From Candidatus Woesearchaeota archaeon (GTDB taxonomy: Archaea > Nanobdellota > Nanobdellia > SCGC-AAA011-G17 > JACPIM01): 64,000 bases of DNA. Where the stretch lies: the NCBI GenBank assembly GCA_964513145.1, contig CAZELK010000001.1, positions 32,001-96,000 on the forward strand, in the 5' to 3' direction. The position numbers and the translations under genes were made by a program. Positions 3,576-4,531 of this stretch are shown here, piece by piece (within the stretch, counting starts at the first letter, position 1; each line of letters opens with the position of its first letter). Below the pieces are notes generated by a model. The model searched no databases, was not told the DNA's origin, and was given only the letters and a program-made list of their open reading frames with translations.

Positions 3576-3680
3576 CTATTTGAAAAAATAGTTCAAACTT
3601 TAAATACTTTTCTAAGGCTAAAAATGTATTTAATTGTATTTATAGGGCTTATAGAGTCATAGTACACTTCTAAAAATAGT

Positions 3681-3960
3681 GTAGGCATCCCAGTTCAGAG
3701 CACACGAAGACAATAGCTACCCTGGTTTTTCCTTTGTTCTGCTACCCTAACGACACCAAATCATATGCTTAAGGCTGCTTTGAACAAGCTTAGCTTTCTG
3801 TTCCCAGCCTGACCTGGTTCACATATGAAATGACCCGCCAGGACAAAACATCATTGTACAAACCAAGACTATTATCTTAGTATACTCTTATCCGGGCCTT
3901 CAGTTTCCCATAAAGTCCGTTTGGAAAATGCAGAGGACTAGCCTGCTACCTAGCCTACGC
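3681..3960 (-). ncRNA. ffs: Signal recognition particle (7S/SRP) RNA, intron-containing
   Basis: About 280 nt, relatively GC-rich and non-coding. Terminal complementarity GUAGGC/GCCUAC. Helix 8 motif GAACCAGGUCAGG-CUG-GGAA-CAG-[18 nt]-AGCAGC-CUUAAG matches the bacterial/archaeal SRP domain IV consensus. A TATA box lies about 25 nt upstream. Confidence 0.78.
3780..3797 (-). other. Putative 18-nt bulge-helix-bulge intron in SRP RNA helix 8
   Basis: Central helix GAAC/GUUC, 3-nt bulges AGA and AAA, inner stem AAGC/GCUU, outer stem AGGCUG/CAGCCU (one G-G mismatch next to the bulge). Cutting after the 2nd nt of each bulge restores CAGG-CUG-GGAA-CAG-AGCAGC. Confidence 0.72.
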
Positions 3961-3980: not shown

Positions 3981-3993
3981 TTTATAAAGTTTT
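3981..3993 (-). promoter_or_regulatory. Archaeal TATA box/BRE for SRP RNA
   Basis: Minus-strand AAAAC-TTTATAAA 21-28 nt upstream of the predicted RNA 5' end at 3960. Confidence 0.55.
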
Positions 3994-4531
3994 ATTTTAA
4001 TATTATTTCATTATAAATATTTGAAGTTCTTTTTTCTAAGTCTTCTGTATCCAAATATAGTCTACAGCTTTCTAAAAACTTAACTGCCTCTGAAAGATGG
4101 CAGTGCCAGAAATATTCCTGTCTTTTAATTTGATCTGCTTTTACTTTAATTGCCCCCAGCATACGACGATCTTCATTTTTTAATTCAGGAATATGCGGTT
4201 CTGAAAAACTTAAAATATCTTCAAGCAAGATTATTGCAGCTCTTTTTAATTCATAATCAAAAGTTGAATTTAAATTAACTATTTTCTGATATTTTGTATG
4301 TACTTTATTTAATTCTTTTAATTGTGTTTCAGTTATATATGATTTTTTCTTAATATACTTTAAAGTTTTTTTAGTTTGATTTTGTAAATTATACAAGTGA
4401 TTATTTGTTGTAAGCCTTGATTCAAAAGGACTTATTTTTTCATCATGCAATATTCTGCTGAATTCTTTTAAGAATTTACTGCATTTATGCTTTTCAAGTC
4501 TTTTTTGCATACTATCAATACATAATGGCAT
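3992..4531 (-). CDS. Hypothetical protein
   Basis: 179-aa ORF filling the gap between the SRP RNA and hsp20. No recognisable motif; start uncertain. Confidence 0.6.
   Translation of the reverse strand: MPLCIDSMQKRLEKHKCSKFLKEFSRILHDEKISPFESRLTTNNHLYNLQNQTKKTLKYIKKKSYITETQLKELNKVHTKYQKIVNLNSTFDYELKRAAIILLEDILSFSEPHIPELKNEDRRMLGAIKVKADQIKRQEYFWHCHLSEAVKFLESCRLYLDTEDLEKRTSNIYNEIILK

What the first reader, a model, noticed from the sequence alone, without database searches (positions are those of the whole stretch)
3772..3810. Bulge-helix-bulge intron inside SRP RNA helix 8, the SRP54/FtsY-binding tetraloop arm
Seen on the minus strand: AGGCUG-G-GAAC-AGA-AAGC-UAA-GCUU-GUUC-AAA-G-CAGCCU. This has a 4-bp central helix (GAAC/GUUC), two 3-nt bulges on opposite strands, a 4-bp inner stem and a 6-bp outer stem with one G-G mismatch. 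Applying the archaeal splicing-endonuclease rule (cut after the 2nd nt of each bulge) removes exactly 3780-3797 (18 nt). The product is GAACCAGGUCAGG-CUG-GGAA-CAG-AGCAGC-CUUAAG, a canonical SRP domain IV (compare E. coli CAGG-UCC-GGAA-GGA-AGCAGC). In the precursor the GGAA tetraloop is sequestered, so splicing would be required for function. Known: BHB introns occur in archaeal tRNA, rRNA and cbf5 mRNA, and Thermoproteus SRP RNA is permuted and circularised by the tRNA splicing machinery. I am not aware of a linear BHB intron within SRP helix 8. Inference: protein targeting here depends on the tRNA splicing endonuclease, and such genes could be missed by SRP covariance models.
Basis: partly seen in the sequence, partly recalled or inferred. 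Interest (0 to 1): 0.9.

Follow-up and report, generated by a model that had tools for sequence, protein, structure and literature searches.

The report
tRNA-type intron in SRP RNA
The only gene for the RNA core of the protein-targeting particle (SRP) in this tiny groundwater-type archaeon is interrupted, at the tip of its protein-binding helix, by an 18-base intron of the kind normally cut out of tRNAs, so protein targeting here very probably depends on the tRNA-splicing enzymes.

Summary
The single SRP RNA gene (window 3679-3960, minus strand) carries exactly 18 extra bases (3780-3797) that eight relatives, including two of the same genus, lack. The insert and its flanks form a 3-4-3 bulge-helix-bulge (BHB). 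The predicted cuts give the canonical CUG-GGAA-CAG-AGCAGCC tip of helix 8.

Nine distinct inserts of 18-34 nt sit at the same site, in four families of the same order and in metagenome contigs. All keep the 4-bp central helix and both 3-nt bulges. Their inner hairpins differ in sequence and length but stay paired: 31 of 36 cells, against 20 in shuffles.

The genome encodes one alpha4-size EndA and RtcB, and its tRNA genes are full of introns. A profile HMM gains 12.6 bits when the 18 nt are removed at the predicted place.

I could find no RNA data, so splicing is inferred (confidence about 0.8). The claim that covariance models miss the gene because of the intron is only partly right.

I found no published linear BHB intron in an SRP RNA. 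Plagens et al. 2015 suggested such an ancestor for the permuted Thermoproteus gene. Earlier unchecked notes of this scan report similar introns on other DNA, including another Woesearchaeota genome.

The parts
3679..3960 (-). SRP RNA gene (precursor, 282 nt), the only one in the genome. It has Alu-domain helices, helix 5 and helix 8; helix 6 is absent.
   Evidence: Rfam Bacteria_large_SRP 62.2 bits over 3681-3958. Archaea_SRP 80.7 bits, E 1.5e-18, model positions 1-317 over 3679-3960, with the 40-nt helix-6 segment deleted. nhmmer finds a single hit in the whole genome.
3798..3960 (-). Exon 1, ending ...GGUCAGG-CUG-GGAA-CAG
   Evidence: Alignment A1; BHB rule applied to the sequence.
3780..3797 (-). 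18-nt BHB intron AAAGCUAAGCUUGUUCAA. Coordinates 3779-3796 give the same product.
   Evidence: Exactly 18 columns absent from 8 relatives. Deleting it gives the maximum profile score. It is unique in the genome.
3679..3779 (-). Exon 2, starting AGCAGCCUUAAG (3' strand of the SRP54-binding symmetric loop)
3772..3810 (-). BHB motif: outer helix 3805-3810/3772-3777, G.G 3804/3778, central helix 3800-3803/3782-3785, 5' bulge 3797-3799, 3' bulge 3779-3781, inner hairpin 3786-3796
   Evidence: Read directly from the sequence. Energy of the strict structure is -12.1 kcal/mol. The same architecture is found in 9 distinct variants.
3981..3988 (-). TTTATAAA, a likely archaeal TATA box about 25 nt upstream of the RNA's 5' end
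   Evidence: Read from the sequence. The promoter role is an inference.
3672..3676 (-). T5 run directly after the 3' end of the RNA, a likely oligo-T terminator
   Evidence: Read from the sequence; inference.

Best explanation
Window 3780-3797 (minus strand) is an archaeal bulge-helix-bulge (tRNA-type) intron inside the single SRP RNA gene. In the primary transcript, GAAC (three bases of the GGAA tetraloop plus the first base of the 3' stem strand) pairs with the intron's GUUC. The intron's own AAGC-UAA-GCUU hairpin stacks on one side of this helix. AGGCUG pairs with CAGCCU, the conserved AGCAGCC region, on the other side. Two 3-nt bulges, AGA and AAA, are left exposed. The genome's single 188-aa EndA (alpha4-size) would cut after the second base of each bulge. 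RtcB would then join the exons and probably circularise the 18-mer. The product is a 264-nt SRP RNA whose helix 8 tip is CAGG-CUG-GGAA-CAG-AGCAGCC, the form that SRP54 and the receptor recognise. What is shown: the insert, its exact boundaries, the BHB geometry, its conservation with covariation in related inserts, the presence of both enzymes, and that this is the only SRP RNA gene. What is inferred: that cleavage and ligation happen, and that the unspliced RNA is non-functional.
For: (1) Exactly 18 nt are absent from 8 relatives, including 2 of the same genus. (2) The BHB-predicted cuts coincide with these boundaries. They give a perfectly paired CUG/CAG apical stem, whereas the other equally scoring register gives a CUG/CAA mismatch. 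(3) A profile HMM of 31 naturally intronless SRP RNAs scores the precursor at 156.7 bits and the 18-nt deletion at the predicted site at 169.3 bits, the maximum over 17 offsets and 9 lengths. (4) Nine distinct inserts (18, 19, 21, 27, 28, 29, 30, 33 and 34 nt) occur at the same site in genomes of four families of the order and in metagenome contigs. All have a 4-bp central helix (GAAC or GAAU with GUUC or GUUU), bulges AGA/AGU and AAA/AUA, and an inner hairpin of unrelated sequence. (5) The first four inner-helix pairs are paired in 31 of 36 cells, against 20.0 +/- 2.2 in column shuffles (0 of 20,000 reach 31) and 14-16 in slid registers. Pair 2 uses A-U, G-C, U-A and C-G. (6) A random 18-mer at this spot meets the criteria in 0.02-0.15% of trials. 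(7) EndA with both Pfam domains and RtcB are encoded. Most detectable tRNA genes are intron-sized, and one carries a strict BHB at a non-canonical position. (8) Presence/absence varies within the genus-level clade, as expected of an intron that is neutral once removed from the RNA. (9) There is a single SRP RNA gene, and SRP54 is present.
Against: There are no transcript data. A G.G mismatch lies between the central and outer helices, so the 3' bulge is not closed by a Watson-Crick pair. In G219 an additional A.C follows it. Alpha4-type EndA enzymes are regarded (from my own knowledge) as the most demanding about BHB shape. The strict BHB is not the MFE fold (-12.1 vs -15.4 kcal/mol), and the fold's z-score is unremarkable (-0.58). 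BHB-like folds are common by chance in this AT-rich genome. The variants are homologous, so the conserved GUUY-AWA tail could partly reflect shared ancestry rather than selection.
Confidence: 0.8

Rival explanations
1. The insert is a tolerated, unspliced expansion of helix 8. The mature RNA keeps the 18 nt, either as a side hairpin next to an intact CUG-GGAA-CAG tip or as a longer helix 8 with a new loop.
For: The CUG-GGAA-CAG hairpin lies wholly in exon 1 and could still form. The MFE fold is a long irregular hairpin. No RNA data exclude this reading. The G.G mismatch makes the BHB imperfect.
Against: This reading does not explain why every variant keeps a 4-nt tail complementary to GAAY, followed by exactly two more bases. 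It does not explain why the hairpin always starts one base after the exon. The insert abuts the AGCA strand of the SRP54-binding loop, which is invariant in all relatives. The insert varies from 18 to 34 nt and comes and goes between close relatives, so it carries no conserved function of its own. Loop sequences differ in every variant.
Confidence: 0.1
2. EndA cuts the BHB but the exons are not rejoined. The SRP RNA would then work as two pieces held together by the long helix 5, like fragmented rRNAs.
For: All the evidence for the BHB applies equally here. The two halves would stay base-paired through helix 5 and the Alu domain.
Against: RtcB is encoded and must already ligate this genome's many tRNA exons. 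An open tip would lack the closed apical stem next to the SRP54 site. In Thermoproteus, ligation at the helix 8 tip was needed to restore the loop (PMC4731332).
Confidence: 0.06
3. Assembly or binning artefact, or a decaying SRP RNA pseudogene.
For: The genome is a draft of 18 contigs.
Against: Same-site inserts occur in 5 independent genomes and 7 metagenome contigs. This is the only SRP RNA gene in a genome scored 98.8% complete. All conserved helix 8 bases are intact, and a TATA-like box and T-run flank the gene.
Confidence: 0.02

Closest known systems
Circularly permuted SRP RNA of Thermoproteus tenax and T. uzoniensis (Plagens et al. 2015, eLife, PMC4731332)
   Same: An SRP RNA that needs the tRNA-splicing endonuclease and RtcB to become functional. 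The join is made at the tip of helix 8 and restores its loop. The host's tRNA genes are rich in introns.
   Different: In Thermoproteus the gene is permuted, the BHB is formed by leader and trailer, and the product is a circle. Here the gene is collinear (model positions 1-317 in order) and an internal 18-nt intron is removed to give a linear RNA. The Thermoproteus enzyme is the heterotetrameric, relaxed type. Here there is a single 188-aa EndA gene. The authors proposed that the permuted genes derive from an ancestor 'with simple BHB introns', and this locus has that form.
Canonical hBHBh' introns of archaeal pre-tRNAs (cut by EndA, ligated by RtcB)
   Same: 3-nt bulge, 4-bp helix, 3-nt bulge, with flanking helices. 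The cut falls after the second bulge base. The intron is short. Presence and absence vary among relatives. The same genome has many such tRNA introns.
   Different: The host RNA is the SRP RNA, not a tRNA. The outer helix is made by alternative pairing of bases that form the tetraloop stem and the SRP54-binding loop in the mature RNA. A G.G mismatch flanks the central helix.
BHB introns in archaeal rRNA genes and in the cbf5 pre-mRNA of Crenarchaeota (from my own knowledge; cbf5 is also named in scan notes e1-5721144 and e1-5721291)
   Same: BHB introns outside tRNA, processed by the tRNA machinery.
   Different: The host genes are different. Those cases come from TACK lineages with relaxed-specificity endonucleases.
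SRP RNA introns noted earlier by this scan on other DNA (e1-4606460 in a Woesearchaeota genome; e1-5425112, e1-5396394 and e1-5553261 in Asgard; e1-5230199 in Micrarchaeia)
   Same: [quoted passage not shown] Two of those notes claim that metatranscriptome contigs show splicing.
   Different: These are unpublished AI notes that I did not check, on other genomes. Only e1-4606460 (21 nt, Woesearchaeota) may belong to the same intron family as here.

Membership tests
Archaeal BHB (tRNA-type) intron | Two 3-nt bulges on opposite strands separated by a 4-bp helix, each bulge lying 3' of its central-helix strand | tested here: met
   GAAC/GUUC with bulges AGA and AAA. The same holds in all 9 variants.
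Archaeal BHB (tRNA-type) intron | Flanking helices h (exon side) and h' (intron side) | tested here: met
   h' is AAGC/GCUU, 4 bp. h is AGGCUG/CAGCCU, 6 bp, but a G.G mismatch separates it from the central helix, so the motif is near-canonical rather than perfect.
Archaeal BHB (tRNA-type) intron | Excision at the bulges restores the conserved mature sequence and structure | tested here: met
   The product CUG-GGAA-CAG-AGCAGCC matches the relatives. The profile score gains 12.6 bits, with the maximum at this position and length.
Archaeal BHB (tRNA-type) intron | The BHB structure is conserved, with compensatory changes, among homologous introns | tested here: met
   31 of 36 inner-helix cells are paired, against 20.0 +/- 2.2 in shuffles. 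Pair 2 shows four Watson-Crick pair types.
Archaeal BHB (tRNA-type) intron | The host encodes the splicing endonuclease and the RtcB ligase | tested here: met
   EndA is 188 aa with PF02778 and PF01974. RtcB PF01139 scores 473 bits.
Archaeal BHB (tRNA-type) intron | Spliced RNA and an excised (circular) intron are observed; EndA cleaves in vitro | not testable with these tools
   No transcript data were reachable. The metagenome scan gave no spliced copy of this organism's gene.
SRP RNA (Rfam clan CL00003) | Score at or above a family gathering threshold over the full model | tested here: met
   Bacteria_large_SRP scores 62.2 against a gathering score of 60. Archaea_SRP scores 80.7, below its gathering score of 96.5, but is full length with E 1.5e-18.
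SRP RNA (Rfam clan CL00003) | Helix 8 motifs: a GNRA tetraloop on a short stem, and CAGG / AGCAGC loop strands | tested here: met
   All are present and aligned with the relatives once the 18 nt are set aside.
Archaeal-type SRP RNA with helix 6 and SRP19 | Helix 6 hairpin and an SRP19 gene | tested here: not met
   The 40-nt model segment is deleted here and in relatives. PF01922 was not found in a genome scored 98.8% complete.
Thermoproteus-type permuted, circular SRP RNA | Permuted gene order, with the BHB formed by leader and trailer | tested here: not met
   The alignment to model positions 1-317 is collinear, and the BHB is internal.

The most novel reading that the evidence does not exclude
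The tip of SRP RNA helix 8 may be a preferred landing site for BHB introns across Archaea. The universally conserved exon bases (AGG...GGAA...AGCAGCC) already supply the outer helix and half of the central helix of a BHB. A short hairpin with a GUUY tail inserted there would therefore be spliceable at once. On this reading the order-wide, patchy intron family seen here is the 'simple BHB intron' stage that Plagens et al. proposed as the ancestor of the permuted Thermoproteus SRP gene, and SRP biogenesis is coupled to EndA/RtcB in several archaeal phyla.
Probability: 0.3. Interest if true: 0.8.

Novelty: new variant of a known kind. Interest (0 to 1): 0.68.

Why it matters
BHB introns are textbook for tRNA and are known in rRNA and in one mRNA. 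The only published link between SRP RNA and the splicing machinery is the permuted, circularised gene of Thermoproteus. A plain internal intron in the SRP54-binding helix would make co-translational protein targeting depend on EndA and RtcB in these reduced genomes. It has the form of the intermediate that Plagens et al. hypothesised. It also offers a small, well-defined non-tRNA substrate (a 39-nt hairpin) for testing how an alpha4-size endonuclease copes with an imperfect BHB. In practice, annotation pipelines should allow short inserts at the helix 8 tip, although here the intron is only part of the reason the archaeal model fails.

Tried and rejected
(1) Infernal with and without the 18 nt: not possible, because the Rfam and CM tools take only stored sequence. 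I used a profile HMM instead and compared naturally intronless same-genus genes, which score 73.9/74.6 against 62.2 bits on Bacteria_large_SRP.

(2) Order-wide pattern GTCAGRN{20,50}AGCAGC: far too loose, nearly all chance hits.

The one 'Woesearchaeota' hit (L096) is not an SRP RNA. As a result I could not obtain an organism name myself.

(4) Search for spliced transcripts in metagenome contigs: three intronless sequences were found, but the tree places them as other organisms. This is no evidence either way.

(5) Is the intron a copy of a dispersed repeat, a lead from notes e1-5721161 and e1-5721153? The 18-mer is unique up to 2 mismatches. There are 6 further near-matches at 3 mismatches, against about 1 in shuffles, and none is convincing. 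Rejected for this intron.

(6) Strict BHB template on this genome's tRNA genes: it found plausible BHBs in some genes and spurious ones in others, so it is useful only as a rough positive control.

(7) Attempt to verify the EF-2 intron note e1-5721144: I did not locate the site, and the relaxed scanner gave mostly noise. Left untested.

(8) Single origin of the intron: the exon tree needs 7 changes of the intron label, at least 2 of them forced by well-supported branches. It cannot separate many losses from repeated gains.

Full report
**What is there.** The minus strand of window 3679-3960 encodes a full-length SRP RNA.
- Rfam's Bacteria_large_SRP model scores 62.2 bits, just above its gathering score of 60.
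- Archaea_SRP aligns end to end (model 1-317) at 80.7 bits, E 1.5e-18, but below its gathering score of 96.5.
- Both alignments leave 19 nt unaligned in the apical loop of helix 8.
- A TTTATAAA box lies about 25 nt upstream, and a T5 run follows the 3' end.
- The neighbours are ordinary: gyrB on the same strand, and hsp20, grpE and dnaK on the other.

**The organism.**
- The genome is 978 kb in 18 contigs, 29% GC, and scored 98.8% complete.
- It is archaeal. It has a tRNA-intron endonuclease gene and RtcB, and its order holds 240 small genomes.
- I could not retrieve a name myself. Earlier scan notes call it a groundwater Woesearchaeota-type DPANN archaeon. The metagenome relatives of its SRP RNA come from groundwater-labelled samples.
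- It has SRP54 but no detectable SRP19. This fits the absence of helix 6 from the RNA.
- nhmmer finds no second SRP RNA gene.

**The insert is real and precisely bounded.**
- The same-genus genomes G001 and G002 carry SRP RNAs that are 75-76% identical.
- In the alignment with them and six same-family genomes, this gene has exactly 18 extra columns. Every relative reads CAGG-NNN-GGRA-NNN-AGCAG.
- I built a profile HMM from 31 naturally intronless SRP RNAs. It scores the precursor at 156.7 bits and the 18-nt deletion at the predicted site at 169.3 bits. That is the maximum over 17 offsets and 9 lengths.
- Offsets -3 to -1 tie in score but give CUG-GGAA-CAA, with a C.A mismatch in the stem. The BHB-predicted cut gives the fully paired CUG-GGAA-CAG.

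**The BHB.**
- Central helix: GAAC (3803-3800) pairs with GUUC (3785-3782).
- Bulges: AGA (3799-3797) and AAA (3781-3779). Each lies 3' of its central-helix strand, which is the handedness of genuine BHB motifs.
- Inner hairpin: AAGC-UAA-GCUU.
- Outer helix: AGGCUG (3810-3805) pairs with CAGCCU (3777-3772).
- Cutting after the second base of each bulge removes 3780-3797.
- Two reservations apply. A G.G mismatch (3804/3778) lies between the central and outer helices; both bases are fixed exon bases, one in the tetraloop and one in the AGCA loop strand. Also, the strict structure (-12.1 kcal/mol) is 3.3 kcal/mol above an MFE fold that is a one-register variant of it.

**Chance.** A BHB-like fold by itself means little in this AT-rich DNA.
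- A relaxed template hits about once per 45 nt.
- 156 places in the genome meet the same criteria as the SRP motif.
- What matters is the coincidence with boundaries set independently by the alignment. That is about 3.5e-6 per site-and-length pair, or 7e-6 for the two equivalent registers.
- Given the exon context, a random 18-mer forms the central helix plus at least 2 to at least 4 inner pairs in the right register in 0.15% to 0.02% of trials.

**Comparative evidence.** This is the strongest line of evidence.
- In the same order, G021 and G048 (another family) carry a 34-nt insert between the same two bases.
- G172 carries a 28-nt insert and G219 a 33-nt insert; each belongs to a further family.
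- Metagenome contigs add inserts of 19, 21, 27, 29 and 30 nt.
- All nine distinct variants are built the same way: one base, a hairpin, GUUY, then two bases.
- All have a 4-bp central helix, a 5' bulge of AGA or AGU, and a 3' bulge of AAA or AUA.
- The hairpins share no sequence but stay paired from the first position. 31 of 36 cells form pairs, against 20.0 +/- 2.2 in column shuffles (none of 20,000 shuffles reaches 31) and 14-16 when the register is slid.
- The second pair occurs as A-U, G-C, U-A and C-G.
- In G219 the mature stem has changed to CUA/UAG, and the central helix keeps pairing through a U.G wobble.
- A tolerated expansion segment would have no reason to keep a tail complementary to the tetraloop at a fixed distance from both junctions.

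**Distribution.**
- In the exon-only tree this gene groups with its own genus (support 100/98). Inside that clade the intron is present here and in L205 (19 nt, with a different inner stem) and absent from G001, G002 and L208.
- Across the order the intron label needs 7 changes, at least 2 of them forced by well-supported branches.
- At least 5 of the 240 genomes searched in the order carry the intron.
- A specific signature was not found in 314 genomes of other orders of the class.
- The tree cannot decide between an old intron lost many times and repeated gains at one site.
- The 18-mer is not a copy of a dispersed repeat in this genome.

**Machinery.**
- EndA is a single 188-aa protein with the N-terminal and catalytic Pfam domains. 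That is the size of the homotetrameric alpha4 type (my own knowledge).
- RtcB is present, apparently interrupted by an intein.
- Only 15-18 tRNA genes are detectable in this nearly complete genome (15 by ARAGORN, 18 by Rfam), and about 11 of them are 88-139 nt long.
- One tRNA gene (C1:145720-145846) has a strict BHB around a 22-nt intron at a non-canonical position.
- The enzyme is therefore in heavy use and is not confined to the anticodon loop.

**What is not shown.**
- I found no RNA evidence.
- The intronless sequences from metagenomes belong to other organisms.
- Whether an alpha4-size enzyme accepts the G.G-flanked bulge is untested.
- I put about 0.8 on a spliced intron, 0.1 on an unspliced expansion, 0.06 on cleavage without ligation and 0.02 on an artefact.

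**Relation to what is known.**
- Three full-text searches found no report of an internal BHB intron in an SRP RNA.
- The closest case is the permuted, circularised SRP RNA of Thermoproteus. [quoted passage not shown] The present gene is collinear and has such a simple intron at that tip.
- Earlier notes of this scan describe similar inserts in Asgard, Micrarchaeia and another Woesearchaeota genome. They are unchecked and I used them only as leads.
- I classify the finding as a new variant of a known kind.

**The covariance-model claim.** This is only partly supported. The gene does fall below the archaeal gathering score. But the intronless same-genus genes also fail it, and four intron-bearing relatives pass at 102-132 bits.

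Noticed in passing
G000 whole genome: Only 15 (ARAGORN) to 18 (Rfam tRNA model) tRNA genes are detectable in a genome scored 98.8% complete, and about 11 of them are 88-139 nt long. Most tRNA genes are presumably hidden by multiple or non-canonical introns.
   Followed up: partly
G000:C6:75368-78150 (L034, L035): RtcB matches in two pieces (profile positions 1-44 and 49-426) about 1.4 kb apart, within or next to an 879-aa open frame. This is probably an intein-containing RtcB.
   Followed up: no
window 3679-3960 and relatives L002-L041: The SRP RNAs of this whole order lack helix 6 (a 40-nt model segment is deleted), and SRP19 was not found in this genome. This is a bacterial-large-type architecture in an archaeon, and it explains why the Bacteria_large_SRP model competes with the archaeal one.
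   Followed up: partly
G000:C1:145720-145846: A 127-nt tRNA gene with a strict-BHB 22-nt intron near position 31 (non-canonical) and apparently a second, longer insert further on.
   Followed up: partly
G000:C2:114290-114309 and C2:117391-117410: Two near-identical copies, 3.1 kb apart, of a motif that meets the strict BHB criteria around a 20-nt insert. Their host genes were not examined.
   Followed up: no
L081:2143-2266: The intron-bearing relative G172 has a 124-nt tRNA hit (47.6 bits) about 450 nt from its SRP RNA gene, again of intron-containing size.
   Followed up: no
window 3992-4531 (minus strand): A 179-aa ORF directly upstream of the SRP RNA gene has no Pfam match.
   Followed up: no
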